Shown piece by piece: positions 209 to 58,556 of a DNA stretch of 64,000 bases; positions within the stretch are counted from its first letter, which is position 1; every line of letters starts with the position of its first letter. The stretch is from Candidatus Niyogibacteria bacterium. GTDB lineage: Bacteria > Patescibacteriota > Minisyncoccia > HO2-45-28. The stretch covers positions 5,292 through 69,291 of the forward strand of contig JACOYI010000004.1 in assembly GCA_016181935.1 (NCBI GenBank), given 5' to 3'. Position numbers and translations under genes: made by a program. A model generated the notes under the pieces. The model was not told where the DNA came from. It searched no databases and saw only the letters and a list, made by a program, of their open reading frames with translations.

Positions 209-267
209 GAAGGTGTGGATAACTCGATCTTGATCGATCTCGTTGAATCTGATAAGATCAAAACGCT

Positions 268-1566
268 ATGCAAAAACGGCAGCCCAAGAATACAACAAAA
301 CAACGATTTACGCAAGACAGGCCGTTGCGGGTCGTGGAATTATTCGCCGGCGTCGGCGGCTTCCGTCTTGGTCTCGAAAATTGCAAAACGAAAAAAAAAT
401 TCAAATACAAAGTGGTATGGAGCAATCAATGGGAGCCCGCTACAAAAAAACAGCACGCATCTGAGGTTTATATAAATCGCTTTGAATCCGAAAATCATTC
501 GAACGAGGACATCGCACAAGTTAAAACATCCAACATTCCGGACCACGACCTGCTCGTCGGCGGATTCCCCTGCCAAGATTATTCGGTCGCGCGAGTGCTT
601 TCCCATGCTGCCGGGATTGTCGGGAAAAAAGGAGTTCTGTGGTGGCAAATTCATCGAATTTTAAAAGAAAAAGGCTCGCGGGCGCCGTCCTGTCTCATGC
701 TTGAAAATGTGGATCGCCTTTTGAAATCTCCCGTATCACAACGAGGGCGCGACTTTGCCATCATGCTCGCCTCGTTGAATGATCTCGGCTACGTCGTGGA
801 ATGGCGAGTGATCAATGCTGCCGATTATGGCATGCCGCAACGGCGTCGGCGCATATTCATATTGGGATATAAAAAAAACACCTCCATCTATCAAAAAATC
901 GCGGGCCTCAAAAATCCGTCCGACTGGATAAAAAACCACGGCACCGCGGCGAAGGCGTTTCCGATAAAAGAAAGCCTCGATTCCAAAAGTTTTAAAATTG
1001 ATGGTGGGTTCGCGGAAATCTCTGAAAATTTCAATAAAAATGGCGGCCAAACAACGCCATTCAAAAACGCTGGGATTGTGATAAATAGAAACGTGACAAC
1101 ACTCGAAACAAAGCCGAACTATCGAGGAAAACACTTGGTTCTCGGCGATATCACGCTCGATGAAAATGATGTCTCAAAGGAATTTTTCATAGAAAAAAAA
1201 GATCTGCCGCAATGGCAATATTTAAAAGGTGCGAAAAAAGAGGAAAGAAGTGGACAAAATGGGTTTAAATTTTTCTACAATGAGGGATCGATGGTCTTTC
1301 CGGATCCGTTAGATAAACCATCGCGAACGATCATCACCGGCGAGGGCGGCCCCACACCGTCTCGATTCAAACACGTCATCAAAACTGCATCCGGAAAACT
1401 GCGCCGACTTACTCCACTTGAACTCGAGCGTCTTTGTATGTTTCCCGAAGATCACACAGCGGGGCAACCCGATATAAAACGAGCATTTTTTATGGGAAAT
1501 GCGCTGGTCGTCGGTGTCATTGAAAAATTAGGCGAAGCATTGGCCCAAAAAATCAACGAGGCCTGA
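268..1566 (+). CDS. dcm: DNA (cytosine-5)-methyltransferase
   Basis: 432 aa; motif I ELFAGVGGFRLG, motif IV GGFPCQDYS, ENV motif; C-terminal target-recognition region. Confidence 0.9.
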   Translation: MQKRQPKNTTKQRFTQDRPLRVVELFAGVGGFRLGLENCKTKKKFKYKVVWSNQWEPATKKQHASEVYINRFESENHSNEDIAQVKTSNIPDHDLLVGGFPCQDYSVARVLSHAAGIVGKKGVLWWQIHRILKEKGSRAPSCLMLENVDRLLKSPVSQRGRDFAIMLASLNDLGYVVEWRVINAADYGMPQRRRRIFILGYKKNTSIYQKIAGLKNPSDWIKNHGTAAKAFPIKESLDSKSFKIDGGFAEISENFNKNGGQTTPFKNAGIVINRNVTTLETKPNYRGKHLVLGDITLDENDVSKEFFIEKKDLPQWQYLKGAKKEERSGQNGFKFFYNEGSMVFPDPLDKPSRTIITGEGGPTPSRFKHVIKTASGKLRRLTPLELERLCMFPEDHTAGQPDIKRAFFMGNALVVGVIEKLGEALAQKINEA

Positions 1567-1996
1567 CTTTCAATTTGTCTCTCAATTTTTCAATGACTTT
1601 ATTGGCATCTTTCTTGATATCACATTCCCAAATCACAACTGACGACCATCCCATTGCTCGTAATTCTCGAATTTTTTTCTTATCGCGAATCTGATTATTT
1701 AAAAATTTCTTACGCCAAAACTCTCGATTATGCTTCGGCATCGGATTCTCGCATTTCGGACATTGATGCCAAAAACAACCGTTTATGAAAATAGCCAGTT
1801 TCTTTTTTAGAAAAGCTATGTCCGGCCTACCCGGCAACGACGTATGCAAGCGAAAACCCTCAAGCCCTATTCGTCTTAACTCATGCCGAACTTGAAATTC
1901 TGGTGAAGTATTTTTACTACGATTCGCGCTCATCACCCTAGAAACGAATACGGATTTTGATTTGGGCGAACGTTTGTCTCGTAAAAATCTCGGCAT
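1553..1996 (-). CDS. vsr: very short patch repair endonuclease
   Basis: 147 aa; LPGRPD, GCFWH, FW..K...N..RD, GW..IWEC motifs match Vsr; convergent 14-nt overlap with dcm; AT-rich. Confidence 0.85.
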   Translation of the reverse strand: MPRFLRDKRSPKSKSVFVSRVMSANRSKNTSPEFQVRHELRRIGLEGFRLHTSLPGRPDIAFLKKKLAIFINGCFWHQCPKCENPMPKHNREFWRKKFLNNQIRDKKKIRELRAMGWSSVVIWECDIKKDANKVIEKLRDKLKVRPR

Positions 1997-2034
1997 AAAA
2001 AAATTAAATCGGGTCGCGAGATTTAAATCTTTTA

Positions 2035-2625: not shown

Positions 2626-2732
2626 CTTATTAGCATTTTTACAAGCTCTTGCTTTGTGTCTGCCTCTAAGCAGGCGCACTCTTTCGCTTCTACGGCAAAA
2701 GCCGGGGTTTCTAGTATCCCGTATCTTCACAG

Positions 2733-4328: not shown

Positions 4329-4405
4329 GGCATTCTCCCGTCTAGAGTTCTGATCCAATTCCACTATACACCAAAAAAGCTCAAAGGGTAGTCCTTTGGG
4401 AAGGC

Positions 4406-9240: not shown

Positions 9241-9243
9241 AAA

Positions 9244-10125: not shown

Positions 10126-10175
10126 TCACCGCAATCCTAGCCGCATTCCTACGGAATGCGGCATTTACTTTCAAT

Positions 10176-10204
10176 AAAAATCCGCGCTCACGGGGAACGC
10201 GGAC
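10176..10204 (-). terminator. rho-independent terminator
   Basis: TCCGCG..CGCGGA hairpin + T-run on minus strand; paralogous to 9727-9763. Confidence 0.6.
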
Positions 10205-10740: not shown

Positions 10741-10824
10741 AAGGGTTCCCCTTAGGAACGGATAAGGGTAATTCCCCCAAGGGTAGTCCTTTTCTGATTC
10801 CTAAGGACTACCCTTGGGGAATCC
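10741..10824. repeat. two adjacent REP-like palindromic elements
   Basis: AAGGGTTCCCCTT-aggaacggat-AAGGGTAATTCCC then AAGGGTAGTCCTT-ttctgattcct-AAGGACTACCCTT. Confidence 0.7.
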
Positions 10825-13756: not shown

Positions 13757-13813
13757 GGAACCCCCAAAGGGTAGTCCTTAGGAACGGAAAAGGACTACCC
13801 TTTGGGGGTTCCT
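13757..13813. repeat. REP-like palindromic element (23-bp perfect inverted repeat, 10-nt spacer)
   Basis: GGAACCCCCAAAGGGTAGTCCTT-aggaacggaa-AAGGACTACCCTTTGGGGGTTCC in the uvrA/uvrC divergent region. Confidence 0.8.
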
Positions 13814-13832: not shown

Positions 13833-15215
13833 GTGCCATCCGTACTCGAGAACACCAAAACCATTCCGGATTCGCCGGGCGTCTATTTTTTCCGCGACCG
13901 CGCGGGAACCGTCGTTTACGTCGGAAAAGCGCAAAATCTCAAGATGCGCCTGAATTCGTATTTCACGATAACCGGCGCCGAAGGCGATACCCGCAAACAG
14001 GCCATGCTCAAAGAAGCCACCTCCTTTGACTGGCAGGAATTGGGTTCGGACATTGAAGCGCTCATCCGCGAAGCGGAACTCATCAAAAAGCTCAAGCCGA
14101 AATATAACGTCCTGATGCGCGACGACAAAAACTTTTTTTACGTCGGCTTCACGCGCGGAAAATTTCCGCGGGTATTCATTACGCATCAACCCGATGAAGG
14201 GAGCACATCGGTAGCGCATCTCGGTCCGTACACGGATGGCGGAGCGCTCAAGCTCGTTTTAAAATCCCTCCGCAAGGCGTTCCCGTATTGCGAATGCGCA
14301 CGCTCGTCTCGCGCTCTGCATGACCGGCCATGCGAAAACGCCGAACTCGGCCGGTGCGCCGGCATCTGCTGCCTGAAAAAAAAGAAATGGCGCGATTTTT
14401 ACCCCGATGCCGAGGAACGCATTGACCGGTATCGCAAAAATATCGCGCTTTTAAAACGCATCCTTGCCGGGCGTTATACGGCTGTAACGCGGCGGCTGAA
14501 AAAAGAGATGCGAAAACTCTCGGAATCGCGCCAGTACGAGGAAGCTGCGGCCTTGCGCGACCAGATCGATGCGCTGGAAAATATTTTCGAGCATCGCGCA
14601 TTTCTGTCGAGGGACGACGAGGCGTGGCGCGAAAAGGGCCTTCGGCATCTCCTGACGGCGCTCGGCGCGAAAAGCGTCAAGCGCATCGAGGGATACGACA
14701 TTTCGAACATCCAAGGGACGGACGCGGTCGGTTCCATGGTGGTCTTCATCGACGGCGCGCCCTACAAAAACGATTACCGGCGGTTCAAGATCCGTTTGCC
14801 GGCGCGTCCCAACGACGTCGCCATGATCCGCGAGATCGTCACGCGCCGGATCGAACACCGCGAGTGGCCATTGCCCGCCGTCATGGTCATTGACGGAGGA
14901 AAAATGCAGTTGAACGCCGCGCTCGCGGCGGTCCAGCACCTGAAAAAAATCCGCGTCGTCTCTCTCGCAAAACGCGAAGAGGAACTTTATTTGCCCAATC
15001 GCACCACCCTTAAATTGAAGGAGAGCTCACAGCCCCTGCTTCACCTGATGCAGGCCGTCCGCAATGAGGCCCATCGCTTTGCGCTCGCCTACCATCATAA
15101 GCGCCGTAAAAAAACATTGTTCAAAGGAAAGCGCACAACAAAAGTCGCCCAAAGAGTGATCCTTAAGAATCGGAGCAAAAAAAAAGTTCGCGCCAAGGGT
15201 AGTCCCCAAGGGTAG
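13833..15215 (+). CDS. uvrC: excinuclease ABC subunit C (lacks C-terminal HhH domain)
   Basis: 460 aa; N-terminal GIY-YIG (GVYFFRDRAGTVVYVGKAQNLKMRLNSY), UvrBC region, RNase H-like endonuclease domain; C-terminus runs into a REP copy (..RAKGSPQG*). Confidence 0.85.
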   Translation: MPSVLENTKTIPDSPGVYFFRDRAGTVVYVGKAQNLKMRLNSYFTITGAEGDTRKQAMLKEATSFDWQELGSDIEALIREAELIKKLKPKYNVLMRDDKNFFYVGFTRGKFPRVFITHQPDEGSTSVAHLGPYTDGGALKLVLKSLRKAFPYCECARSSRALHDRPCENAELGRCAGICCLKKKKWRDFYPDAEERIDRYRKNIALLKRILAGRYTAVTRRLKKEMRKLSESRQYEEAAALRDQIDALENIFEHRAFLSRDDEAWREKGLRHLLTALGAKSVKRIEGYDISNIQGTDAVGSMVVFIDGAPYKNDYRRFKIRLPARPNDVAMIREIVTRRIEHREWPLPAVMVIDGGKMQLNAALAAVQHLKKIRVVSLAKREEELYLPNRTTLKLKESSQPLLHLMQAVRNEAHRFALAYHHKRRKKTLFKGKRTTKVAQRVILKNRSKKKVRAKGSPQG

Positions 15216-15263
15216 TCCATATCTCGTTCCTAAGGACTACCCTTTGAAAAGGACTACCCTTAG
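15195..15263. repeat. REP-like cluster (two direct + two inverted AAGGGTAGTCC units)
   Basis: AAGGGTAGTCC-cc-AAGGGTAGTCC-atatctcgttcct-AAGGACTACCCTT-tgaa-AAGGACTACCCTT. Confidence 0.8.
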
Positions 15264-15298
15264 GAAGCGTCCGCCGGCCAAACGGCGCCGCCACCGAA

Positions 15299-24151: not shown

Positions 24152-27373
<3,222 letters not shown>

Positions 27374-27477
27374 AAAAAAATAAAAAAGTATAAAAATACC
27401 CCTAATATCCCTCTTTAAACGGGGCTTCTAATTGACTTCTTCCTTAATGACTATGGCGATACTGCACCTAATAATTC

Positions 27478-27524
27478 AGTATACTCCCCTCTTTTTTCTT
27501 GTCAAGCGCCCAGGGTGTGGATAA
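27478..27524 (-). promoter_or_regulatory. rpoB promoter TTGACA-N16-TATACT with TTATCCACA (DnaA-box 9-mer) 10 nt upstream of -35
   Basis: Minus strand: TTATCCACAccctgggcgcTTGACAagaaaaaagaggggagTATACT. Confidence 0.5.
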
Positions 27525-30967: not shown

Positions 30968-31039
30968 AGCGCTTGGCCGGATTCGAACCGACGCTCGGGG
31001 TTTTGCAGACCCCCGCCTTACCAGCTTGGCTACAAGCGC
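30968..31039 (-). tRNA. tRNA-Cys (anticodon GCA)
   Basis: Acceptor GCGCTTG/CAAGCGC, anticodon stem GGGGT/ACCCC with loop CTGCAAA, T-loop TTCGAAT. Confidence 0.85.
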
Positions 31040-31254
31040 TTAAGAACTTTTCGTTTTCGCACGCTTTCGCGCGCCTGTTTTTGATATTTCAACCGCTCCA
31101 CCAGCGGCAATGAAACAAAATCTCCGCGATCAATGACGTCCGCGATCTTTCTTTCGTCTGAAGTCAACGGGACCGCATCCATCGACAAGTCGGTCAGGAT
31201 CCGCGTGATTTTTCCCATCGCACACCTCCGTTCGTAACAACTTTATTCAATCCC

Positions 31255-31370
31255 CGGTACTGGCGGCTGCCTACTGTCCCCTTGCGAGTATCATCGGCAG
31301 TAGAGCGTTTTACGACTCTGTTCGGAATGGGAAGAGGTAGTTCCACCCCCTCAAGCCACCAGAACCGGAG
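31255..31370 (-). rRNA. rrf: 5S ribosomal RNA
   Basis: Minus strand matches 5S consensus (CCGAACAGAGTCGTAAAACGCTCTACTGCCGATGATACTCGCAAGGGGACAGTAGGCAGCCGCCAG); helix I CTGGTGGC/GCCGCCAG. Confidence 0.85.
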
Positions 31371-31562
31371 ATTCAATTGCTTATTGCGTGTTCTAAAATG
31401 AATTTTCGGAATCACAAATCATAGAGCAGAAAAAGACGTCGAAACATCGGGATAAGACCGGTCGTTTAGTACTTCTCGGCTGAATCCCTTACGGGACTTA
31501 CACCTAAAGCCTATATGCGTGGTAATCTTCCACGGACCTTAACGATTTCTAATCTTGGGGCC

Positions 31563-31595
<33 letters not shown>

Positions 31596-31736
31596 GATCC
31601 GAACGTAGCTACCCAGCGGTGCCCTTGGCAGGACAGCTGGCAGACCAGAGGTTCGTTCATCCTGATCCTCTCGTACAGAGGACGAATCCCCTCAAAAATC
31701 AACGCCTGCAGTAGATAGGAGACCAACCTGTCTTAC

Positions 31737-32449
31737 GCATTTCTCAACAATTACTTGCTGTATGGACTATACCATCATCCCCGATTTCTCGGGGCGACCG
31801 ACGTGTTAGCAATTCGTTTCTGAATCACTCTGCCGCTCCGCCAGCTGGCGAACGCGACAAGTCTCTACGGGGTCAATGTACGTTTCTTCCGCTTTTTTGA
31901 ATAATTCAATTCGCGGAAGGAATCTATCATTTTCATCAAAACCTTAAAGTCGTTTGCCTTCTCGACTTTTTGCTTTTGATCGATAATTTTGAACATCAGC
32001 TCAACCTGTTTGCGTTTTAATATCACAAAAGGTCGAATCGATATGAGGAATTTTTTGATATTATCGATCCGATTGATCGTATACTCAAGAATTCCGTCGT
32101 TGCGATCCCTGATATGACCGAGACCGATCAGGGCACACAACTCCTCGAACTTACTGCGGTCCTTCGCGGATTGAAACAGCACAATATAGAGAGCGACCTG
32201 ATATCCGTACCGATAATCGGCATTCGGCTTAAGCCGCGCGTAAATACTGCCGTCCCCATCCAAAAAACCCGCTAAATAAGCTCTTCGTATCGACGAAAGT
32301 GATGATTTCATACACGACTTCCCTCGGTATTATCCTAACACACGACAGGTTGTTTTTGTAGTGTTAGGACTTCACCGATATGAGTCGGTTTTTCATGCGC
32401 AATTGCTCGCGCATGCCGCCGTGTTTGATGTCCTCGGTTCAAGTATTTT
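31737..32449 (-). mobile_element. 23S rRNA intron 1 (putative group I) at the E. coli L2593-equivalent site
   Basis: Exon homology to E. coli breaks between ..GGGTTCAAACCGTC and GTAAGACAGGTTGGTC.. (E. coli GAACGTC|GTGAGACAG); 713-nt insert containing a LAGLIDADG ORF. Confidence 0.7.
31865..32311 (-). CDS. LAGLIDADG homing endonuclease (intron-encoded)
   Basis: 148 aa; LAGFLDGDGS motif; AT-rich; inside 23S. Confidence 0.85.
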   Translation of the reverse strand: MKSSLSSIRRAYLAGFLDGDGSIYARLKPNADYRYGYQVALYIVLFQSAKDRSKFEELCALIGLGHIRDRNDGILEYTINRIDNIKKFLISIRPFVILKRKQVELMFKIIDQKQKVEKANDFKVLMKMIDSFRELNYSKKRKKRTLTP

Positions 32450-33083
32450 GACGGTTTGAACCCAGCTCGCGTACCTTTTTAATTGGCGAACAGCCAAACC
32501 CTTGGGAGCTTCTCCACCCCCAGGATAAGGTGAGCCGACATCGAGGTGCCGAACACCGCCGTCGCTATGGACGCTTGGGCGGTACCAGCCTGTTATCCCC
32601 GGAGTAACTTTTATCCGTTGAGCTTCCACGGCTTCTAATGCCCATGGTCGGATCACTATGTTCTGCTTTCGCACCTGCTTGACATGTCCGTCTCGCAGTT
32701 AAGCTGGTATGTGGCATTGCCCTATCGGTGCGATTTCCATCCGCACCTAACCAACCTTAATAAACTCCTCCATTACTTTTTAGGAGGAAAGTGCCCCACT
32801 TAAACTGCCCACCAGATACTGTTCCCGTCCCGTTTGACGGGACAGGTTAGATTTTACAACGCTCAAGATGGGTATTTCACGGGTGGCTCCATTCCGGCCG
32901 AAACCAAAACTTCAAAGCCTCCCCACTATGCTACGCATGAGAATCGTAAAGCCAATATCAAGTTGCAGTAAAGCTTCCGGGGTCTTTTCGTCTAACTGCA
33001 GGTAACCGGCATCTTCACCGGTATTGTATTTTCACCGGGCGCTTCTCCGAGACAGTCCTCCAGTCGTTACGCCTTTCGTGCGC

Positions 33084-33793
<710 letters not shown>

Positions 33794-33850
33794 ACCTTAG
33801 AACGATTATAGTTATCGCTGACATTGACGAGGGCTTCGGCCGGTCAGCCA

Positions 33851-33928
33851 CCCTGGAGGCTGGAAACCGGAAGCTAGTGTCTGGAATTTCTCCAGCATCT
33901 AGCATTCTAGCCTCTAGTCTCCAGAGTG
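33851..33928. repeat. CTGGAA/CTAGA-rich hairpin insertion in 23S (IVS-like), copy R1
   Basis: ccctggaggctggaaaccggaagctagtgtctggaatttctccagcatctagcattctagcctctagtctccagag, inserted next to conserved GGTTAACGTTGGCG (domain IV). Confidence 0.7.
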
Positions 33929-34530
33929 ACCGCCAACGTTAACCTTCTCGCATTGGTCAGGCGTCACCCCCTATACATCCTCTTACGAGTTCGCAGGGAG
34001 CTGTGTTTTTGATAAACAGTCGCCAGATTTGCCGAGTTCCTTGGAGAAGTCTCACCCGTTCGCCTTCGTCTTCTCGACGAGTCCACCTGTGTCGGTTTCC
34101 GGTACGGTTTCCGCATCGCGAGCCCTTAGAAGCTTTTCTTGGAAACGCGCTTTGCCCTATCCCCCGCCAAAGGCGGGGTTTCTCAAAAACTTGGATCCGC
34201 CTTGCGGCCGCTCGCCGGATTTTCCTAGCGAGCATCCTTATTTTTGAAACACAAATCCAATAACATGCAGGGCATACTGCATTCCGTCCCTTCGTCGGAA
34301 CGATACGGAAGTTGCCGAATATTAACGGCATGTCCATCAGCTGCGGCTTTCGCCATTGCCTTAGGACCGACTAACCCTTGGCTGATCATCGTTGCCAAGG
34401 AAACCTTGGACTTTCGGCGGTTTGGGATCTCACCAAACTTGTGGTTACTTGTGCCAACATTCTCACTTCCCAGCGCTCCATCCACGTCTCACGACGGGAC
34501 TTCATCGCCCTGGGAACGCTCTCCTACCAC

Positions 34531-34610
34531 TCTAGAAGCTAGAGGCTAGATACTGGATTGCTAGAAATTTCCAGCTTTCCAGCTTCCAGCGTCTAGCTTC
34601 CAAAGTTCTA
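34531..34610. repeat. IVS-like hairpin insertion in 23S, copy R2
   Basis: tctagaagctagaggctagatactggattgctagaaatttccagctttccagcttccagcgtctagcttccaaag. Confidence 0.7.
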
Positions 34611-34672
34611 ATCTTCGGTACTGTGCTTAGCCCCGATTATCTTCGGCGCGAAATCTCTAAACGAGTGAGCTG

Positions 34673-34715
<43 letters not shown>

Positions 34716-35113
34716 CGCTATCAGAGAAATCTCACCACCTTACTTGCACTTAGCACAGATTTAGGGACCTTAAATGTAGATGCGGGCTGTTTCCCTTTCG
34801 ACCGGTGGAGCTTAGCCCCCACGGTCTAACTGCCTCGATACCCCTCCGGTATTCGGAGTTTGGTAGGCATGACGAGATTGCTCCCTTTTCACGCCTTCCA
34901 GTAGCTCTACCCCCGGAAGTACTTCGAGACGCCAGCCCAAAAGCTGTTTCGGAGAGAACCAGCTATTACCAAATTCGATTAGCTTTTCACTCCTTGCCAC
35001 AACTCATCCGATAGTATTGCACGGCTAACCAGTTCGGGCCTCCCCCCGCATTTCTGCGGGGTTCACCCTGGTCATGGCAAGCTCATCTGGTTTCGGGTCT
35101 TACACGCACCACT

Positions 35114-35192
35114 TTCTAGAATCCGGAAGCTAGAAGCTGGAAACTGGAAAATTCCGGCCTCCAGCCTCTAGCTGTCTGGAAAATCTAGAGTA
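35114..35192. repeat. IVS-like hairpin insertion in 23S, copy R3
   Basis: ttctagaatccggaagctagaagctggaaactggaaaattccggcctccagcctctagctgtctggaaaatctagag; flanked by GGGAAACCGAGTG and GACCCGAAACC conserved blocks. Confidence 0.7.
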
Positions 35193-35296
35193 CGCGCTAT
35201 TCACACTCGGTTTCCCTTTGGATGCGTCCTGACGGACTTATCCGAGCGGTGCATATAAACTCGTTGGCTCATTCTTCAATAGGCACCCCGTCACAC

Positions 35297-35376
35297 CCTG
35301 GAGACTGGAAACTGGATTACCGGAAGCTGGAAATTTTCCAGCTTCCAGAGTTTCTAGTCTCTAGTCTCCAGAGTGC
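35297..35376. repeat. IVS-like hairpin insertion in 23S, copy R4
   Basis: cctggagactggaaactggattaccggaagctggaaattttccagcttccagagtttctagtctctagtctccagag; contains perfect 12-bp stem GGAAGCTGGAAA/TTTCCAGCTTCC. Confidence 0.7.
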
Positions 35377-36211
35377 TCCGAGTCCTTGTAAGCGCACGGT
35401 TTCAGGTACTATTTCATCGCCCTCTCGGGCTGCTTTTCACCTTTCCCTCACGGTACTGGTTCACTATCGATCTTGGAGAATATTTAGCCTTGGGAGTCAG
35501 TCCTCCCGAATTCCCCCGACGATTTCGTTTGTCGAGGTACTCACGTAACGATCCCGAGAGCGTAAGGCCGTTTTCGGTTACAGGGCTATTACCTGCTCTC
35601 TCCTTTGAGATTGCTCTCAAAACGGACCGCACGTATAACCTCCTGCACCTTGAAAACAAGGTGCAGGATTTGGGCTCTTCCCGTTTCGCTCGCCGCTACT
35701 TAGGGAATGAGCGAAATAATTCTTAAAGAGCGTAACTATCCGCCCTCAAAGAATGATTTCGCGAATTGTTTCTTTTCCTCCGCTTACTGAGATGTTTCAC
35801 TTCAGCGGGTTGGCAGCCCTGTCATACGACAGGGCTTTTTCGGTTTTACCGAAAAAGGTTTCCCCATTCGGACATCCCCGGATCAAAGGTTGCTAGACAC
35901 CTCCCCGAGGCGTATCGCCGTCACGCCGCGTCCTTCATCGCTTCTCCAAGTCAAGGCATCCACCGTGCGCTCTTATGTCTTATCCCGATGTTTCAACGTC
36001 TTAATCCTTCGACTGCGCTCAGGATTATCCTGAGTATGGCCGAAGGATAACTTTTTACCTGCTCTATGAAATTTTCAAAGTTCTCATCGCACTATGACCA
36101 ATCAAAAACCATCCGCCAGTCGGCGGACGGTTTGAAGAACAAACCTAAATCGTCTCTCCGCCGTTTCGCATATGACTGATGTGATTGGTTATCATATTTC
36201 GATGTAATTCG

Positions 36212-36240
36212 AGTATAGGCGATTCCCATCCTTGCGTCAA
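36212..36240 (-). promoter_or_regulatory. rRNA operon promoter TTGACG-N17-TATACT
   Basis: Minus strand gggcTTGACGcaaggatgggaatcgccTATACTcgaa about 200 nt upstream of 23S 5' end. Confidence 0.55.
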
Positions 36241-36308
36241 GCCCCAAAACGATGCGCTGTGAATAAGGTGGGGGGAACCCCCTCGCCCTTCGGACGGGCA
36301 AGAATAGA

Positions 36309-37587: not shown

Positions 37588-38277
37588 CTACCGGTTGTCC
37601 ATGATATCGTTCCGCAGACGTGCGATGAATTTCTCCGCCGCGTCTTTGCCCCCCAGACCGAACGACAAACCAATGGCAAGCGAGATCGCGGCAACCGCTC
37701 CGGTAAAGAGTGTTTGCACCAATGGCCCCGCAATGCCCAGCTGGAAGAGCGCGGCCAAAATCGCAAAGATCCAGATCGCCCATTTCGAGACACCGCCCAA
37801 AAACCCGGCGGACGGCAAATGCGCCGCGCGGGCCGAACCCGTCACGACGCGTTGGGTGATATCCGCAAGGACCGCCGACGCGACCAAAATGATCGCGGCA
37901 ACAATGACTTTCGGAAGGTACACCAATACGACGTCCGACAAAAAGATATTCACCTGCGTCAAACCGAGCACATCAACGGCGGCAACCAGAAATACGATGA
38001 TGACGAACCATTTTACGAGCGCGCCGATGAATGCGCCGGAATCCAACTGCCATCCTGCGCGCGACAACGGTTCTTCGAAGCCGATGCTTTGAAGCGCGCG
38101 GTCCACTTTCAGGGCGTGGAAAATTTGCGCGACAACCCGGTCAAGCGCCATGGCGATCACCCAGCCGACGACAAAAATAATGAGCGCAACGACAAGCTGT
38201 GGGATGAATCCGATAACGCCCGCCCATAACTGTTGGAAAGACGCCACCAGAACATCTCCCCACGTTTGTAACAACAT
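37588..38277 (-). CDS. mechanosensitive-channel-related protein (conserved TM-helix repeat family)
   Basis: 229 aa; repeated VVALIIFVVGWVIA / VKWFVIIVFLVAAVDVLG / IWIFAILAALFQLGI helices resembling the MscS-associated TM_helix repeat. Confidence 0.45.
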   Translation of the reverse strand: MLLQTWGDVLVASFQQLWAGVIGFIPQLVVALIIFVVGWVIAMALDRVVAQIFHALKVDRALQSIGFEEPLSRAGWQLDSGAFIGALVKWFVIIVFLVAAVDVLGLTQVNIFLSDVVLVYLPKVIVAAIILVASAVLADITQRVVTGSARAAHLPSAGFLGGVSKWAIWIFAILAALFQLGIAGPLVQTLFTGAVAAISLAIGLSFGLGGKDAAEKFIARLRNDIMDNR

Positions 38278-38460
38278 AATGCGTTAAATGTTAGATATTA
38301 ATTCTTATAAAGCAGAGATAGGGGGCATGCGGATTTATTCGACCGTTCCGCAGCCATTCTATCCCGTTTTAAATAAATAGCCCAAAAGGTGCATCGCTTA
38401 CTATTATATCATATTCCCGCTCTTAACTCACCGGCCTTCCTGTGGATGTGGATAAGTGCA

Positions 38461-54049: not shown

Positions 54050-54386
54050 AAATTTTCTTAATTTAACTCTGCAGAGTTCGCTTAAACTTCGACTAGTTAA
54101 GTCCTCTGCATTAAATAATCAATCTAATAACAATTTTCGGAAGATGGAATCAAATTCCGAATCGTCTCGCGATCCGCCAACGGGCGGAGGCGGACGATCA
54201 TCGACCGTTCAATCCCATCATTAATAGCAATTGAATTAAGAGACCACCATCGGTATTTAATTATCAACGTGCGCGTTGTGTCCGTATTTCAGAAATACAG
54301 GAAAGAAGCCGCGCTTCGGCTCTTTTAAATTACGCTCTGCTCGAAAACAGTCGTGCATTCGCACCGACAATCAGCATTACGTTTCT

Positions 54387-54433
54387 ATTATACGGCGTCT
54401 TCAAATCCATGCAATGTTCTTCCGTGTGGATAA
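54387..54433 (-). promoter_or_regulatory. promoter TTGCAT-N16-TATAAT with TTATCCACA exactly 10 nt upstream of -35
   Basis: Minus strand TTATCCACAcggaagaacaTTGCATggatttgaagacgccgTATAAT; same spacing as rpoB promoter. Confidence 0.45.
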
Positions 54434-54527
54434 CTTATTGCGTCGTTTGAAGACAATTTTCAGCGTATCGTTTCCTGAAGAAATGGTCAATAAAAAACCG
54501 CAATAAGGGTATAAATCCCGAAAAATG

Positions 54528-55220
54528 TCAATTTCCCGCCATTTTATACCGCCGCCAGCGCTTATCGCCTTCTTTCAAAAGCAGTCCTTCGTTCGCCATT
54601 CCGACAAGATCGCGCTGGATGGTCTTGGCGCTCGCCTGGCCCTGAAAAACCGACATAAGATCCCCGATACTCACCCAATCCTGCCCCCCTATAAATGAAA
54701 GGATTTTTTCTCGCCGCTCCTGATTGGCTAACGCACCCGAATGTGAAACCCCGCTTTCTTTTCGCTTAACCGAGCCGGCCTTCGAATGACCGATCTGTAA
54801 TGGACGCGTGGAATCATCGGACAAATCAATGGATTCCGTTAGAAAGGCGTCTTTCTGGCTTATTAAAAAGTCCATTACCATTGAATATTCCCTCTTTAGG
54901 ACATTGAAGTTTATCTCGGACACAAAAGAATTGGACGCGGCAAGTTCCAATACACGCAGAGACCGACTGATACCTTCGCGAATTGACTCTATCTCTCGAA
55001 CGCGCTCCGGAAGAGAGATCGAGCGAATCTTTAGTATTGAATTGAGGGTCTCGATCGCCTCTTTCCGCAATGTCCACTTGAGCGGCTCCGTGTCCTTGAA
55101 AAAATCCGTCACCCGATACAGGGCTTCTGTTATTTTTTGAGCGCGATCCGAAAGATGATCAATATGTCCTTGAGTGTCGGCCATTGAACTCACCGTACCG
55201 CGCTTTCCCCATTCGGACAA
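54528..55220 (-). CDS. putative transcriptional regulator with C-terminal winged-helix domain
   Basis: 230 aa; C-terminal ILSFIGGQDWVSIGDLMSVFQGQASAKTIQRDLVGMANEGLL (DeoR/wHTH-like). Confidence 0.45.
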   Translation of the reverse strand: MSEWGKRGTVSSMADTQGHIDHLSDRAQKITEALYRVTDFFKDTEPLKWTLRKEAIETLNSILKIRSISLPERVREIESIREGISRSLRVLELAASNSFVSEINFNVLKREYSMVMDFLISQKDAFLTESIDLSDDSTRPLQIGHSKAGSVKRKESGVSHSGALANQERREKILSFIGGQDWVSIGDLMSVFQGQASAKTIQRDLVGMANEGLLLKEGDKRWRRYKMAGN

Positions 55221-55238
55221 CTTGTCCTTATCTAAAAA

Positions 55239-56972
55239 TCATTGCGTAGCGAGAGAATCCCGCTTATAAATTCGAAATACTTCTTCTCCGCGCGGATTCT
55301 GGATGCCGTTATACGGCAAGTCGCGGGCCAACGCCTGAAATTCGGACGTGGGAACGATCGCCGTGTGAAAGACAAAATAATAGTTACGAAACCCGACACG
55401 GTCATAATAATCGGGTCCCTGTTCGCGCAAATATCGAAAATAGGTTTCGAGCGTAATGACGGGCCAGCCGTGATAGATATGAAGCCGGTCGAGCACCCAG
55501 AGTTTTGCCCCTCGGTCAACATTACCGTAGATCACGATCATCGCGGGGTACGGCTGTTTTCCCGCTTCCCTATCGCGGCGCAAAAATCGTTCCTGCATAT
55601 CGTCAAGAAATTGATACCGCACATCGAACCGGAGTGCCGGCATTGTGCCCGAGAGCTCTTTTTTGAAATAATCGGCGAGCGCATTGTATCCCCAATTATA
55701 ATTTTCGTAGCGCACCTTTGACGCAAGCCATGGTGTAGGGCCTGCCGGATAATATGCAATGACATTATTGGCCGTATAAAAAAGTTCGAATGCGACGAGC
55801 ACCGCGAGTGCTGCGAACCCAAAGCGGCGGCGATTCTCAAAGAACGGCGCGAGCGTGTCCAGCCCGAGCGCAGCGATGAGCGCCAAAAATGGCGTAAGCA
55901 TCGTCAAAAAACGATATGAAGGGCCGATCTTTAAAAGCAGGAGCAAAAGCCAGAAAACGCTCAAGGCGAGAAGCGCGTGGCGCCGAAAACCAAGAACTGC
56001 TCTAAAGAAACCCCCTATGAGGACCCTTAAGCGCACCGCGAAACCCGCGAGCGACGCGACAACGAGCGTCAGAAAAACCCACGAATTCGTGGCAATGAGC
56101 CGCGGAATAAAATTCGCCACGCGCTCCGTAACGGTACCGATATCTTTTCCGGGGGTCGCCTGCCACACCTCCGGATGCTGACCAAAAACAAACGAGAGCT
56201 GAAAATCAAAATGCCCGACAGCGCGATAAAGCATTGCATTGTAAATAATAACGGGGCTTGCCATGGCAACGGCAAGCAATACGCCGAACCATATCTCTTT
56301 CCTGCGAAAACAATCGCGCCGGAAAAATCCCGCATAAGTAAGAATGATCGGCGCGAGGATCGCGGCGTTATATTTGGCAAGGAATCCGAGCCCGACCGCC
56401 GCCCCCACTCCGGGCCAATACCGGTCGTCATCGAGCGCCCGTCCGAAAAAATAAAGCCCTAGAAGCAAGAAAAAAATCACATACGCCTCCTGCATCCCAA
56501 GGCGCGAAATGTAATTGTGATTAAGCGTTATCGCCAAGAGCAGGGCCGCAATGAGTCCCGCGCGCTCTGAATACAACCGGCGGCCCAAAAGATATAAAAG
56601 ATAAACGGATGCGACGCCGAATACTGCGGACGGAAACCGCATCCCAAAATTATTTTCTCCAAAAATGCCGATGGAGAGATGCTCGATCCAAAAAACAAGC
56701 GGCGGATGGTCGTGGAACGACCAGTGCGCCCACCATGGGATATCGGCTTGCCCGCCTAAATTTTCCGCAGCGGAATTTTGGCGGGAATCGAACCATTCCC
56801 AAGGCGTGGTCTGATGCTCCGCCTCGTCAAAATCCATAAGGCCGATGGCGCGAAACCCGTAAAAAACCTCGTCATTGACCGGATCCCCGCGCGCAATCCA
56901 GCCGACGCGCAACACGGCCGCGAGCACGAGGATCGCGATCAATGCATACCGGAATGTCGGTTTTTTCCCCAT
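55239..56972 (-). CDS. GT39/GT83 (ArnT/PMT-like) glycosyltransferase
   Basis: 577 aa; multi-TM with conserved N-terminal loop (DEVFYGFRA..) characteristic of the dolichyl-phosphate-mannose protein mannosyltransferase/ArnT fold. Confidence 0.75.
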   Translation of the reverse strand: MGKKPTFRYALIAILVLAAVLRVGWIARGDPVNDEVFYGFRAIGLMDFDEAEHQTTPWEWFDSRQNSAAENLGGQADIPWWAHWSFHDHPPLVFWIEHLSIGIFGENNFGMRFPSAVFGVASVYLLYLLGRRLYSERAGLIAALLLAITLNHNYISRLGMQEAYVIFFLLLGLYFFGRALDDDRYWPGVGAAVGLGFLAKYNAAILAPIILTYAGFFRRDCFRRKEIWFGVLLAVAMASPVIIYNAMLYRAVGHFDFQLSFVFGQHPEVWQATPGKDIGTVTERVANFIPRLIATNSWVFLTLVVASLAGFAVRLRVLIGGFFRAVLGFRRHALLALSVFWLLLLLLKIGPSYRFLTMLTPFLALIAALGLDTLAPFFENRRRFGFAALAVLVAFELFYTANNVIAYYPAGPTPWLASKVRYENYNWGYNALADYFKKELSGTMPALRFDVRYQFLDDMQERFLRRDREAGKQPYPAMIVIYGNVDRGAKLWVLDRLHIYHGWPVITLETYFRYLREQGPDYYDRVGFRNYYFVFHTAIVPTSEFQALARDLPYNGIQNPRGEEVFRIYKRDSLATQ

Positions 56973-56991
56973 TTACTATTACTATAAACGC

Positions 56992-58446
56992 ATGTCGGCA
57001 CCATCGTCTAAAATATTGCTTGGCGTTTTTATTGCCGCATACATCCTTGTTTTCGGAACGCTCACCCTCCTCCGCCACGCCGATTTTCAAACGCAGGCAT
57101 GGGATATGGGTATTTTCCAGCAAACATTCTGGAATACCATCCATGGCCGCGTGATGCAAAACACCATCGAGGAAATTCCGAATCACCTCGGCATTCACAT
57201 GAGCCCGCTCTTGTTCCTTCTCGTACCGGGCTTTGCCTTGTTCCCGAGTCCTTACTATTTATTGGTGATACAAACCCTGGCCTTGGCGCTGGGCGCGATC
57301 CCCGCTTACCTGCTTGCGCTGCACATTCTCAAAAACCGGCGCCTCGCGCTGTTTTTTGCGGGCGCGTATCTTCTGTACCCGCCGCTTCATTGGGTCAACT
57401 GGTTCGATTTCCACGAGATCGCTTTTTTCGTGCCGCTCGCGCTCGGCGGGCTGTATTTTCTGGAACAGCGACGCTGGGGCTGGGCATGGATTTTTCTCAT
57501 TCTTGCGGCAAGCACAAAAGAAGACGCAATCCTCGCGGTCGCGGCGATCGGTTTTTGGCTTTTTGTTAAAAAATACCCTTTATCAACAGTTTATCCACCT
57601 AAAGGACTAACCTTTGGGTTTTTGACCAAAGAACGCATCCATGGGGCGCTTCTTTTGACTGTCATGCTCGGCTATTTTATCATCGCCACCAAACTTATCA
57701 TGCCGGCGCTCGGCGGCGGACTTGTGCGATTAGATCGCTATGCCGAGCTGGGAGAAACCTCGCTCGCAATCGTCAAAAATCTTCTTCTTCATCCATCGCT
57801 TCTCATTCAAACCGTTATTACGGTTGAAAAAATCAATTATGTTTTCTGGCTCCTTGCCTCTTTCGCGTTCCTGCCTCTTGCCGCCGGACGCGCGCTGATT
57901 CTTGCGGCACCCGGCTTTCTTGAAAATTTGCTGACGGCATTTAAATTCCAATTTTCATCTTTTTATCAATATGACGCCATCCTCATTCCGGCGCTTCTTG
58001 TCGCGTCGCTCTACGGCTTCGACCGCCTTCGTGTCCGGTGGCCGAAACAAGAAAAAGTATTCGCGAGTATTTTTTTGATCATAGTGGGTGGCGCATTCGT
58101 TCTTCGCTCACCCATCGGCCCTCTTTCGTTTCCCACGGAATTTTTCCGCGCCAACCCCCATCGGGACGCCTATCGCGCAATGATCCGTGAGGTTCCCAAC
58201 GAAGCAAGCGTTGCCGCATACACGAATCTCATTCCCCATCTTTCAAATCGCGAACACGTCTACATGCTTGGCCAGGAACCGTTTACGGCAGACGTCATAC
58301 TCCTCGACGGGGGTGATTATTTCGGCTTTCCGGATCCCAAAGCCTTCCAAATATATGCGGATTCATACGCTCTATCGGAACTTTATGACATTCGCATCAT
58401 TGATGAACGGTATTTCATCTTCACCCGTAAAAATTTTTCGCAATAA
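56992..58446 (+). CDS. DUF2079 family membrane protein
   Basis: 484 aa from ATG 56992; multi-TM; AWDMGIFQQTFWNT..HF.P pattern typical of DUF2079. Confidence 0.6.
   Translation: MSAPSSKILLGVFIAAYILVFGTLTLLRHADFQTQAWDMGIFQQTFWNTIHGRVMQNTIEEIPNHLGIHMSPLLFLLVPGFALFPSPYYLLVIQTLALALGAIPAYLLALHILKNRRLALFFAGAYLLYPPLHWVNWFDFHEIAFFVPLALGGLYFLEQRRWGWAWIFLILAASTKEDAILAVAAIGFWLFVKKYPLSTVYPPKGLTFGFLTKERIHGALLLTVMLGYFIIATKLIMPALGGGLVRLDRYAELGETSLAIVKNLLLHPSLLIQTVITVEKINYVFWLLASFAFLPLAAGRALILAAPGFLENLLTAFKFQFSSFYQYDAILIPALLVASLYGFDRLRVRWPKQEKVFASIFLIIVGGAFVLRSPIGPLSFPTEFFRANPHRDAYRAMIREVPNEASVAAYTNLIPHLSNREHVYMLGQEPFTADVILLDGGDYFGFPDPKAFQIYADSYALSELYDIRIIDERYFIFTRKNFSQ
57580..57612. repeat. degenerate REP copy inside DUF2079 coding sequence
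   Basis: tttatccacctaaaggactaacctttgggtt. Confidence 0.45.
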
Positions 58447-58556
58447 AAACCCAAAGGGTAGTCCTTTGTGTTAACAATCTGTGGATAACTAAAGCAAAAA
58501 GGCAACTTATGCACAGGTTATCCACCCAAAGGACTACCCTTTGGGTGTTTATCCAC
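58447..58556. repeat. BIME-like composite REP
   Basis: CCCAAAGGGTAGTCCTTTG-..ctgtggataact..-GGTTATCCACCCAAAGGACTACCCTTTGGG-tgtttatccac. Confidence 0.85.

What the first reader, a model, noticed from the sequence alone, without database searches (positions are those of the whole stretch)
214..58478. Strong enrichment of the DnaA-box 9-mer TTATCCACA, twice at a fixed 10-nt distance upstream of a -35 hexamer
Perfect TTATCCACA / TGTGGATAA occurs at 214, 27516, 38447, 48645, 49432, 54425 and 58470, against about 0.4 expected by composition in 64 kb. Near-matches TTATACACA and TTATCCACC add more. Three sit in extended REPs. In the rpoB promoter (TTATCCACA-N10-TTGACA-N16-TATACT) and in a promoter at 54387-54433 (TTATCCACA-N10-TTGCAT-N16-TATAAT) the box is positioned identically, suggesting an activator/UP-like site (DnaA acting as a transcription factor, or another regulator with the same specificity). 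The three boxes within 80 bp next to the RAYT gene could also be read as an oriC-like cluster, but no dnaA/dnaN is nearby.
Basis: seen in the sequence. Interest (0 to 1): 0.55.

Follow-up and report, generated by a model that had tools for sequence, protein, structure and literature searches.

The report
Conserved DnaA-box sites at promoters and repeats
In this uncultivated ultra-small bacterium (Candidatus Niyogibacteria), the 9-base sequence that the replication initiator DnaA normally binds sits just upstream of the promoters of the RNA polymerase, ribosomal RNA and surface-protein genes, stays there in related genomes, and has also been built into a mobile repeat, which suggests that DnaA or a look-alike factor controls core growth genes.

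Summary
TTATCCACA occurs 9 times in 64 kb, against 0.3-1.0 expected.

The copies fall into three classes:
- Two lie in coding sequence and look incidental.
- Three, plus about eight near-matches, form the 'head' of a lineage-specific REP element: TTATNCACA, 2 nt, TTATCCACC, then a hairpin. This head is kept in a sister genome even though the hairpin stem has changed.
- Four are single boxes next to promoters: rpoBC, a 1211-aa surface protein, a mechanosensitive-channel-like gene and a C5 methylase. A fifth, the variant TTATTCACA, precedes the 23S rRNA promoter.

Four of these five promoter sites recur at the same place in relatives whose flanking DNA is unalignable. Seven of 31 Patescibacteria rpoB upstream regions carry an exact box, against 0.1 expected. 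These are therefore conserved cis-regulatory sites, not chance and not an origin, since GC skew never changes sign.

The '10-nt fixed distance' is only approximate: N9-N12 at rpoB and N7-N17 elsewhere.

DnaA acting as a transcription factor is the best candidate binder but is untested. An unknown regulator with the same specificity remains possible.

I rate this a new variant of a known kind, of moderate interest.

The parts
27516..27524 (-). Exact box TTATCCACA, 10 nt upstream of the rpoBC promoter -35 (about -53 to -45)
   Evidence: The box is conserved in L081 (TTATCCCCA), L082, L164 and L109, and is inverted in L083.
27478..27505 (-). rpoBC promoter TTGACA-N16-TATACT, followed by a conserved leader of about 100 nt; rpoB ATG at 27373
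   Evidence: 11/12 match to consensus. Alignment A1.
54425..54433 (-). Exact box 10 nt upstream of the -35 of the promoter of the 1211-aa surface-protein gene
   Evidence: Conserved in L168 (N11) and L109 (N10), in both cases upstream of the homologous gene.
54387..54414 (-). Promoter TTGCAT-N16-TATAAT, followed by a leader of about 340 nt to the ATG at 54049
   Evidence: The leader is conserved in L168 and has no Rfam match.
38447..38455 (-). Exact box 38 nt upstream of the extended -10 (TGaTATAAT, 38403-38411) of the mechanosensitive-channel-like gene (37588-38277)
   Evidence: The orthologue in L171 has an exact box 37 nt from TGgTATAAT, with an unrelated spacer and a different upstream gene.
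36258..36266 (-). Variant box TTATTCACA, 17 nt upstream of the 23S rRNA promoter TTGACG-N17-TATACT (36212-36240)
   Evidence: The same variant sits N7 upstream of TTGACA-N16-TATACT before the 23S gene in L171. Both genomes have a 6/9 partner box at a 2-bp gap.
214..222 (-). Exact box in the 60-nt divergent intergenic region. Read on the + strand it is an inverted box, N7 upstream of TTGATC-N17-TGaTAAGAT of the C5 DNA methylase gene (ATG 268). It lies 5 nt upstream of the ATG (208) of a minus-strand gene that runs off the window.
   Evidence: The geometry matches the inverted boxes in L083 (rpoB) and L091 (lexA-like gene). No orthologue was available to test conservation.
49399..49493 (.). Inverted pair of headed REPs between the TPR gene and the RAYT gene. 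The minus-strand copy is TTATCCACA-gt-TTATCCACC plus hairpin; the plus-strand copy is TTATCCACC plus hairpin.
   Evidence: An orthologous pair lies at L168 9890-9975.
48624..48659 (-). Headed REP just downstream of the RAYT gene: TTATCCACA-gt-ATCCACC plus the hairpin CCAAAGGACTACCCTTTGG
   Evidence: The same sequence is present in L167.
50259..50296 (+). Headed REP TTATACACA-gg-TTATCCACC plus hairpin. On the minus strand it is an inverted double box, N20 upstream of the TPR-gene promoter.
   Evidence: The arrangement is orthologous in L168 9060-9180.
57580..57617 (+). Headed REP TTATCAACA-gt-TTATCCACC plus hairpin
58451..58544 (.). Inverted pair of headed REPs. The minus-strand copy has TTATCCACA plus a degenerate second unit; the plus-strand copy is TTATGCACA-gg-TTATCCACC.
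   Evidence: An orthologous pair lies at L168 1570-1660.
48660..49373 (-). RAYT-like Y1 transposase gene (237 aa, MERKF...). It is flanked by headed REPs and carries a headless copy of the REP hairpin inside its coding sequence at 49192-49210.
   Evidence: Pfam Y1_Tnp 33 bits, above its cut-off. NCBIfam REP_Tyr_transpos 39 bits, below its cut-off of 80..
24547..24555 (-). Exact 9-mer inside rpoB coding sequence (codons for K-LIHM-V); judged incidental
   Evidence: It lies in the conserved RpoB segment MKLIHMVEEK.
48332..48340 (+). Exact 9-mer antisense to the 157-aa gene 48124-48597; judged incidental
60294..60302 (-). One-mismatch box TTATCCCCA, 30 nt upstream of TGgTATACT; a possible further site, not tested

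Best explanation
The 9-mers are functional protein-binding sites with the specificity of the replication initiator DnaA (TTATNCACA). They are used in two ways in this Candidatus Niyogibacteria genome.

(1) Promoter sites. Single boxes lie immediately upstream of the core promoter, with the end of the box 29-40 nt from the -10 hexamer (about -45 to -60). The genes are the rpoBC operon, the 23S rRNA operon (variant TTATTCACA), a large surface protein, a mechanosensitive-channel-like gene and probably a C5 methylase. From that position the bound protein most likely modulates RNA polymerase recruitment. Its position upstream of, and not overlapping, the -35 hexamer favours activation. This would tie expression of the transcription, translation and envelope machinery to the cell's DnaA status.

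(2) REP heads. Two boxes in tandem with a 2-bp gap form the head of a lineage-specific REP element associated with a RAYT transposase. This creates dispersed high-affinity double sites.

Shown: the enrichment, the positions, the orthologous conservation, and the double-box geometry. Inferred: that DnaA is the binder, and the direction of regulation.
For: Enrichment:
- 9 exact copies against 0.3-1.0 expected.
- 4 copies in 8.4 kb of non-REP intergenic DNA.

Conservation at orthologous promoters, with unalignable spacers and flanks:
- rpoB, in relatives with 90, 80, 77 and 69% RpoB identity, and inverted in a 65% relative.
- The surface-protein gene, in L168 and L109.
- The MS-channel gene and the 23S promoter, in L171.
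- The upstream neighbour gene differs between genomes at rpoB (ftsW versus a ParE-like gene) and at the MS-channel gene. The box therefore travels with the downstream promoter.

Across Patescibacteria, 7 of 31 rpoB upstream regions (12.7 kb) hold an exact box against 0.10 expected, and 14 of 31 hold a box with at most one mismatch, against 2.7 hits expected.

Agreement with DnaA specificity:
- The sequence is a 9/9 match to the DnaA consensus.
- Tolerated variants concentrate at position 5 (TTATACACA, TTATGCACA twice, TTATTCACA), which is the N of TTATNCACA.
- REP heads are tandem boxes 2 bp apart. That is the 'double DnaA box' geometry which E. coli DnaA needs in vivo (PMC11317965).
- In other Patescibacteria, exact boxes precede a DNA polymerase III delta' gene and a lexA-like gene, which are typical DnaA-regulon functions (PMC11317965).
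- DnaA is an established activator and repressor, for example at nrdAB, where upstream boxes stabilise RNA polymerase (PMC8203912).

REP heads are under their own constraint:
- They are conserved between the window and L168 although the hairpin stem has changed.
- REPs of more distant RAYTs (61% and 30% identity) lack heads. The head is therefore an add-on module, not a requirement of the RAYT family.
Against: - No binding data exist, and no dnaA gene or origin from this lineage could be retrieved to confirm its box consensus (the source contig was not retrievable).
- Most promoter boxes are single, with no second box at 2-3 bp. In E. coli, single consensus boxes are often unoccupied: only 13 of 32 lie in a bound region (PMC11317965).
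- Spacing to the core promoter varies between promoters (d = 29-40 nt), and the box is inverted in some lineages.
- rpoB, rRNA and surface-protein genes are not known DnaA targets in model bacteria.
- Some variants break the CACA core: TTATCCCCA at the L081 rpoB promoter, and TTATCCACC as the proximal REP unit.
- An HTH protein of unknown function is encoded directly upstream of the surface-protein promoter in three lineages and could be the real binder there.
Confidence: 0.55

Rival explanations
1. The sites are conserved and functional, but a different sequence-specific regulator of Patescibacteria binds them. Its specificity coincides with, or overlaps, the DnaA box. One candidate is the conserved 230-aa protein with a weak C-terminal HTH_DeoR match, encoded just upstream of the surface-protein promoter. 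This regulator would control a small regulon of highly expressed genes.
For: - Most promoter sites are single boxes, unlike in vivo DnaA sites in E. coli.
- The regulon (rpoBC, 23S rRNA, surface protein) is unlike known DnaA regulons.
- The HTH gene is syntenic with the boxed promoter in the window, L168 and L109, ending 11 nt before the box in L109.
- The variant TTATCCCCA is tolerated at the L081 rpoB promoter.
Against: - A 9/9 match to the DnaA consensus, repeated in many lineages, is hard to reach by coincidence.
- The variable position coincides with the N of the DnaA consensus.
- The REP heads have the 2-bp tandem geometry typical of cooperative DnaA binding.
- Boxes precede holB and lexA-like genes in other Patescibacteria.
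- The HTH protein has no informative family or structure match and was found only next to the surface-protein gene.
Confidence: 0.3
2. The promoter boxes are non-functional debris: solo heads left behind by the headed REP family. Their position near promoters only reflects that REPs land in intergenic DNA.
For: The REP heads carry the same 9-mer, and REPs are intergenic. One REP double box lies upstream of the TPR-gene promoter in both the window and L168.
Against: - The promoter boxes are conserved in genomes where no headed REP was seen, in the roughly 54 kb sampled from them (L082 and L171; L164).
- They are also conserved in lineages with only 65-69% RpoB identity.
- No hairpin remnants flank the promoter boxes.
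- Headed REPs were found only in the window and L168.
Confidence: 0.04
3. The cluster of boxes beside the RAYT gene is a replication origin, or a datA/DARS-like DnaA-titrating locus, and is not part of a repeat family.
For: There are three to four box-like 9-mers within 80 bp at 49417-49475. Double boxes are what DnaA binds best.
Against: - GC skew is negative throughout, and cumulative skew falls monotonically, so there is no origin or terminus here.
- No dnaA or dnaN is present.
- The same head-plus-hairpin unit recurs at five loci in the window and at orthologous places in L168.
- Dispersed titration by the REP heads remains possible, but as a consequence of the best explanation and not as a rival to it.
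Confidence: 0.03
4. The excess is a compositional or chance effect with no biological meaning.
For: Two of the nine copies are in coding sequence and are explained by codons. Three other 9-mers also reach 4 copies in intergenic DNA.
Against: - 0 of 100 shuffles reach 9 copies, and the Markov expectation is at most 1.0 up to order 5.
- The other 4-copy 9-mers are A/T-rich and share no context.
- Orthologous conservation has been shown at four promoters.
Confidence: 0.01

Closest known systems
DnaA boxes acting as transcription-factor sites (E. coli dnaA, nrdAB, mioC and purH; B. subtilis and Caulobacter DnaA regulons)
   Same: The same 9-mer consensus. The sites lie in promoter regions, and upstream boxes can stabilise RNA polymerase, as at nrdAB (PMC8203912). 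The regulon is compact and linked to replication, repair and RNA metabolism (PMC11317965).
   Different: The target genes here (rpoBC, 23S rRNA, a surface protein, an MS-channel-like gene) are not known DnaA targets. Most sites are single boxes, whereas E. coli DnaA needs pairs in vivo. The association with rpoB extends across many Patescibacteria lineages. Binding is untested.
'Double DnaA box': two tandem boxes 2-3 bp apart (Stringer, Fitzgerald and Wade 2024, PMC11317965), and the 2-bp-spaced low-affinity arrays of E. coli oriC
   Same: The REP heads are two direct 9-mers separated by exactly 2 bp, with one unit at or near consensus and the other at 8/9.
   Different: Here the double box is fused to a REP hairpin and dispersed as a repeat. 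The proximal unit overlaps the stem of the hairpin.
REP/BIME elements and their RAYT (TnpA-REP) transposases
   Same: Short intergenic palindromes in many copies, often in inverted pairs, with a Y1-transposase gene flanked by copies of its own REP.
   Different: - A GTAG motif lies in the hairpin loop, rather than 5' of the stem.
- A conserved 20-nt double-box head precedes the hairpin in this lineage only.
- The RAYT coding sequence itself contains a cognate hairpin.
- The RAYT scores below the NCBIfam equivalog cut-off.
Host-factor sites in mobile or repeated elements (the DnaA box in the IS50/Tn5 outside end; IHF sites in some E. coli BIMEs). Cited from my own knowledge, not checked here.
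   Same: A repeated or mobile element that carries a binding site for a host DNA-binding protein.
   Different: I know of no described REP family that carries DnaA boxes. What the head does is unknown.
UP element (alpha-CTD binding site at -40 to -60)
   Same: The same position relative to the core promoter.
   Different: The box is not an A/T tract. It is sequence-specific, present at only a few promoters, and works in either orientation.

Membership tests
DnaA box (DnaA-binding site) | 9-mer matching TTATCCACA or TT(A/T)TNCACA | tested here: met
   9 exact copies. The variants TTATACACA, TTATGCACA and TTATTCACA fit the relaxed consensus.
DnaA box (DnaA-binding site) | Bound by the organism's DnaA protein | not testable with these tools
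   No dnaA gene is present in the window or in any fetched locus.
DnaA box (DnaA-binding site) | The same consensus clustered at the organism's own oriC | not testable with these tools
   The source contig and the dnaA region could not be retrieved.
DnaA box (DnaA-binding site) | In vivo sites are pairs of boxes 2-3 bp apart (the E. coli rule, PMC11317965) | tested here: inconclusive
   Met by the REP heads (8/9 partner at a 2-bp gap). Weakly met at the 23S promoter (6/9 partner in both genomes). Not met at the rpoB, surface-protein and window MS-channel promoters.
DnaA-regulated promoter | The box lies in or next to a promoter and is conserved with it | tested here: met
   Four promoters have orthologous boxes.
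Replication origin (oriC) | GC-skew sign change | tested here: not met
   GC skew is negative in all windows, and the cumulative curve is monotonic.
Replication origin (oriC) | Adjacent dnaA/dnaN, and a unique cluster of boxes | tested here: not met
   No dnaA is present (Pfam). The cluster is a repeated REP unit found at five loci.
REP/RAYT system | Multi-copy intergenic imperfect palindrome | tested here: met
   15 matches to the hairpin core against 0 expected. All are intergenic except the one inside the RAYT gene.
REP/RAYT system | A Y1 (HUH) transposase gene flanked by cognate REPs | tested here: met
   Pfam Y1_Tnp is above its cut-off. REPs flank the gene at 48624-48659 and 49399-49436. 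The pattern is the same in L168, L164 and L169.
REP/RAYT system | Membership of the curated RAYT equivalog (NCBIfam NF047646) | tested here: not met
   39.1 bits against a cut-off of 80. It is a distant RAYT-like family, widespread in Patescibacteria.
REP/RAYT system | Conserved GTAG tetranucleotide 5' of the hairpin (feature recalled from my own knowledge) | tested here: not met
   GTAG occurs in the loop (CCAAAGG-GTAGT-CCTTTGG on the opposite strand). The 5' flank is the box head instead.
UP element | A/T-rich tract at -40 to -60, general to strong promoters | tested here: not met
   The box is not an A/T tract. Only 2 of 7 strong intergenic promoters have it.

The most novel reading that the evidence does not exclude
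The REP family of this lineage has captured a double DnaA box as a functional module. One possibility is that DnaA bound next to the hairpin helps to open the duplex, so that the single-strand-specific RAYT can act on its REP. Another is that the dispersed heads form a genome-wide DnaA-titration system, a mobile equivalent of datA, in a genome of about 1 Mb. Together with the single boxes at the rpoBC, rRNA and surface-protein promoters, this would make DnaA the master growth regulator of these regulator-poor ultra-small bacteria.
Probability: 0.15. Interest if true: 0.8.

Novelty: new variant of a known kind. Interest (0 to 1): 0.55.

Why it matters
Patescibacteria (the candidate phyla radiation) are almost entirely uncultivated, have genomes of about 1 Mb and few recognisable transcription factors. 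How they regulate growth genes is essentially unknown. No paper ranked in the top 15 of a full-text search of the held library combined 'DnaA box' with these phyla.

A consensus DnaA box kept directly upstream of the rpoBC promoter in many lineages, and of the rRNA and surface-protein promoters in this family, gives a concrete and testable hypothesis. The hypothesis is that replication-initiator status is wired directly to the synthesis of RNA polymerase, ribosomes and envelope. It can be tested with recombinant proteins and without cultivating the organism.

The REP family with a double-box head would be the first REP known to me that carries initiator-binding sites. It raises the question whether mobile repeats can reshape DnaA titration or exploit DnaA.

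Tried and rejected
- Retrieving the source genome by exact protein look-up (RAYT, RpoB, GroEL, P0001) failed: nothing was on record. A whole-genome count was therefore impossible.
- A metagenome scan with the 19-nt REP core found nothing.
- The genome contigs and metagenome-contig scans with RpoB returned mostly distant relatives (at most 69% identity) and many Actinobacteria, because the peptide patterns were generic. They were still useful for the survey of rpoB upstream regions across Patescibacteria.
- A global alignment of the surface-protein upstream regions of the window and L109 did not align the promoters. The comparison had to be anchored on the box and the -10 hexamer.
- Rfam searches of the two conserved leaders found nothing meaningful.
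- NCBIfam and PDB sequence searches of the HTH protein gave nothing.
- L163 has only 88 nt upstream of rpoB, too little to include the box.
- Other 9-mers with 4 intergenic copies (TTCCGAAAA, ATTCAGAAA, AAAAATCAA) were examined and dismissed because they share no context.
- A general upstream promoter element was rejected.
- The idea that the RAYT recognises the head as a family-wide feature was rejected, because REPs of RAYTs at 61% and 30% identity have no head.

Full report
**Source**

The window comes from an uncultivated Patescibacteria (CPR) bacterium.
- Its RpoB, RAYT and MS-channel proteins are 100% identical to NCBI proteins named 'Candidatus Niyogibacteria bacterium', on a contig of 89,786 bp.
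- That contig could not be fetched.
- Gene content is typical of CPR: groES/EL, uvrA, uvrC, RNase J, rpoBC preceded by ftsW, rplJ/L, and a 3.6-kb 23S rRNA gene with LAGLIDADG ORFs plus a 5S gene. There is also a 1211-aa secreted protein with a peptidoglycan-binding domain, glycosyltransferases, and a Y1-transposase (RAYT-like) gene.
- Most genes are on the minus strand. GC skew is negative in every 4-kb window.

**Checking the observation**

TTATCCACA occurs 9 times. Expected counts are 0.30 from shuffles and 0.26-1.0 from Markov orders 0-5. Eight copies are on the minus strand, which is also the strand of most genes.
Three coordinates are off by 4-10 nt, and two coding-sequence copies were missed.
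- With one mismatch allowed there are 31 matches against 8.7 expected.
- For scale, E. coli has 32 consensus boxes in 4.6 Mb (PMC11317965).

**Three classes of copies**

*(a) Incidental copies in coding sequence.* 24547 encodes L-I-H-M in the conserved RpoB segment MKLIHMVEEK. 48332 is antisense in a small gene.

*(b) REP heads.*
- A hairpin, CCAAAGGACTACCCTTTGG, has 15 matches in the window with up to 3 mismatches, against 0 expected.
- In seven copies it is preceded by a 'head': a distal 9-mer, 2 nt, and the proximal unit TTATCCACC, whose last bases enter the stem. The distal unit is TTATCCACA in three copies and TTATACACA, TTATGCACA or TTATCAACA in one each; one copy has only the proximal unit.
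- The perfect boxes at 48651, 49428 and 58480 are such heads.
- The 'three boxes within 80 bp' beside the RAYT gene are simply an inverted pair of headed REPs.

*(c) Single promoter-proximal boxes* at 27516, 54425, 38447 and 214, plus the variant TTATTCACA at 36258.

**Conservation of the promoter boxes**

This is the main evidence. The relatives were reached through protein homologues.

rpoB:

| Source | RpoB identity | Architecture |
|---|---|---|
| window | - | TTATCCACA-N10-TTGACA-N16-TATACT |
| L081 | 90% | TTATCCCCA-N10-TTGACA-N16-TATACT |
| L082 | 80% | TTATCCACA-N11-TTGACA-N16-TATACT |
| L164 | 77% | TTATCCACA-N12-TTGACA-N16-TATAAT |
| L109 | 69% | TTATCCACA-N9-TTGCGC-N17-TATACT |
| L083 | 65% | inverted: TGTGGATAA-N6-TTGACT-N17-TACAAT |

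In alignment A1 the box and the two hexamers are conserved while the spacer and the upstream flank are not. The upstream neighbour gene also differs: ftsW in the window and L164, a ParE-like gene in L082.

Surface-protein gene:
- The syntenic sister genome L168 has TTATCCACA-N11-TTGCAT-N17-TATAAT, followed by a near-identical leader.
- L109 has TTATCCACA-N10-TTGCTA-N17-TATACT, 455 nt upstream of the 1195-aa homologue. The rest of the region is unalignable.

MS-channel-like gene:
- L171 has an exact box 37 nt from TGgTATAAT. The window has one 38 nt from TGaTATAAT.
- The spacer is unrelated and the upstream gene is different.

23S rRNA promoter:
- Both genomes carry the same variant, TTATTCACA.
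- It sits N17 from the -35 in the window and N7 in L171, a difference of 10 bp. The distance from the box end to the -10 is 40 nt versus 29 nt, about one helical turn.

Box at 214:
- Read on the + strand, it is an inverted box N7 upstream of TTGATC-N17-TGaTAAGAT of the C5 methylase gene.
- The geometry is the same as in L083 (rpoB) and in L091, where the gene downstream is lexA-like.
- No orthologue was available to test it.

Survey across Patescibacteria:
- 7 of 31 rpoB upstream regions (12.7 kb in total) carry an exact box, against 0.10 expected.
- 14 of 31 carry a box with at most one mismatch, against 2.7 hits expected.
- These lineages are related, so the counts are not independent events. 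However, the surrounding DNA is not conserved.

The box is not a general promoter element. Of seven strong intergenic promoters in the window, only the rpoB promoter (exact box) and the 23S promoter (variant) have it.

**The REP heads**
- L168 has a RAYT 78% identical to the window's and is syntenic from the glycosyltransferase gene to the RAYT gene. It carries REPs at the orthologous places. Their stems have changed (CCCGAGGACTCCCCTCGGGG versus CCAAAGGACTACCCTTTGG), but the heads are unchanged: TTATCCACA-gt-TTATCCACC, TTATCCACA-gt-TTATGCACA and TTATCCCCA-ga-TTATCCACC.
- REPs of RAYTs at 61% identity (L169) and 30% identity (L164) have no such head. The head is therefore a lineage-specific module under its own constraint, not a requirement of the RAYT family.
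- Its geometry is two direct 9-mers 2 bp apart. That is the 'double DnaA box' which E. coli DnaA needs for in vivo binding, and which mirrors the low-affinity arrays in oriC (PMC11317965).
- Of the five substitutions seen in the distal unit or in the alternative proximal unit, three are at position 5, the N of TTATNCACA. This is a small, post hoc count.
- One REP double box lies N20 upstream of the TPR-gene promoter in both genomes.

**Which protein binds**

This is inferred, not shown.

For DnaA:
- The match to the near-universal consensus is 9/9.
- The pattern of tolerated variants fits the DnaA consensus.
- The REP heads have the double-box geometry.
- In other Patescibacteria, boxes precede a DNA polymerase III delta' gene (18 nt upstream in L003) and a lexA-like gene.
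- DnaA is a known activator and repressor, including stabilising RNA polymerase from upstream boxes at nrdAB and contacting the beta subunit (PMC8203912).

Against DnaA:
- The promoter boxes are mostly single.
- The target genes are unprecedented for DnaA.
- Spacing varies between promoters and the box is sometimes inverted.
- No dnaA gene or origin of this lineage could be examined.
- A conserved gene for a protein of unknown function with a weak HTH match sits directly upstream of the boxed surface-protein promoter in three lineages.

I put DnaA at about 0.55 and another regulator at about 0.3. The statement that these are conserved functional cis-regulatory sites, whatever binds them, I put at about 0.9. 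The position upstream of, and not overlapping, the -35 hexamer favours activation or recruitment. Repression by oligomerisation from the box cannot be excluded.

**Rejected readings**
- Origin: the skew is monotonic, there is no dnaA, and the cluster is a repeated unit.
- REP debris: the boxes are conserved in the L082/L171 and L164 genomes, where about 54 kb of sampled sequence shows no headed REP.
- Chance: excluded.
- UP element: excluded.

**Novelty**

DnaA-box regulatory sites and REP/RAYT systems are both known kinds. The new parts are:
- the conserved association of the box with the rpoBC promoter across many Patescibacteria, and with the rRNA and surface-protein promoters within this family;
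- a REP family whose head is a double DnaA box.

A full-text search combining 'DnaA box' with CPR names listed no paper holding both among its 15 top-ranked results.

Noticed in passing
window 49192-49210 (inside the RAYT gene 48660-49373); also L168 about 10163-10184, L164 17628-17658, L169 10164-10192: Each of four RAYT-like genes carries, at the same codon position (about aa 55-66), a headless copy of its own genome's REP hairpin. The internal copy co-varies with the flanking REPs (CCAAAGGACTACCCTTTGG, CCCGAGGACTCCCCTCGGGG, TTGTTAAACACGGAGTGTTCAA, CCCAAAGGAGCTTCCTTTGG). The encoded peptide differs accordingly. This suggests a DNA- or RNA-level function inside the coding sequence, such as autoregulation or self-recognition.
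   Followed up: partly
window 48624-58544 compared with L168 1570-10751: REPs sit at orthologous intergenic positions in the two genomes. All copies within one genome share that genome's stem variant (AAAGG/CCTTT versus CGAGG/CCTCG). This implies either concerted evolution of the hairpins or repeated re-insertion next to resident box heads.
   Followed up: partly
window 4381-4399, about 8417, 10776-10818, 13764-13805, 15206-15264: A second, headless REP subfamily (CCTAAGGACTACCCTTGGG and GAAAAGGACTACCCTTTGG) occurs as tight inverted pairs embedded in longer palindromes, around groES, uvrA and uvrC. One pair lies directly upstream of the uvrA promoter TTGACA-N17-TATAAT (13749).
   Followed up: no
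window 54050-54386 (-): The leader between the boxed promoter and the surface-protein ATG is about 340 nt long. It is almost identical in L168 and has no Rfam match. It may be a structured or stabilising 5' UTR.
   Followed up: partly
window 27374-27477 (-): The rpoB leader contains blocks conserved in L081, L082, L163 and L164 (ATTATTAGGTGC..., AGTCATTAA, and a GCCCC...GGGGT hairpin). It has no significant Rfam match. It may be a regulatory leader of the rpoBC operon, which here is separated from rplJL.
   Followed up: partly
window 54528-55220 (-): A 230-aa protein with only a weak C-terminal HTH_DeoR match is encoded immediately upstream of the boxed surface-protein promoter in the window, L168 (74% identity) and L109 (37% identity). 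It is a candidate local or global regulator.
   Followed up: partly
window 31258-35985 (-): The 23S rRNA gene spans 3.6 kb against a 2.9-kb model and contains a LAGLIDADG endonuclease ORF (33200-33685). A second LAGLIDADG ORF (31865-32311) lies between the 23S and 5S genes. No 16S gene is adjacent. Two tRNA-Cys(GCA) genes lie at 30472-30554 and 30967-31040.
   Followed up: partly
window 60230-60302 (-): TTATCCCCA lies 30 nt upstream of TGgTATACT, just after tRNA-Gln. About 430 nt with no convincing ORF follow before the PAP2 gene (start 59825). This may be another boxed promoter with a long leader or a small RNA.
   Followed up: no
L003 19517, 20836, 22158 (Saccharibacteria MAG): Three exact boxes lie within 2.7 kb, and two of them share a longer flank (ATACCCATAAAGTTATCCACAGCC). 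One is 18 nt upstream of a DNA polymerase III delta' gene. Another precedes TATAAT and a large, possibly surface-associated, protein. The box-promoter association may therefore extend to Saccharibacteria.
   Followed up: partly
window 206-270: The C5 DNA methylase gene (ATG 268) and a divergent gene that runs off the window (ATG 208) are separated by only about 60 nt. The predicted methylase promoter would give a nearly leaderless mRNA.
   Followed up: no
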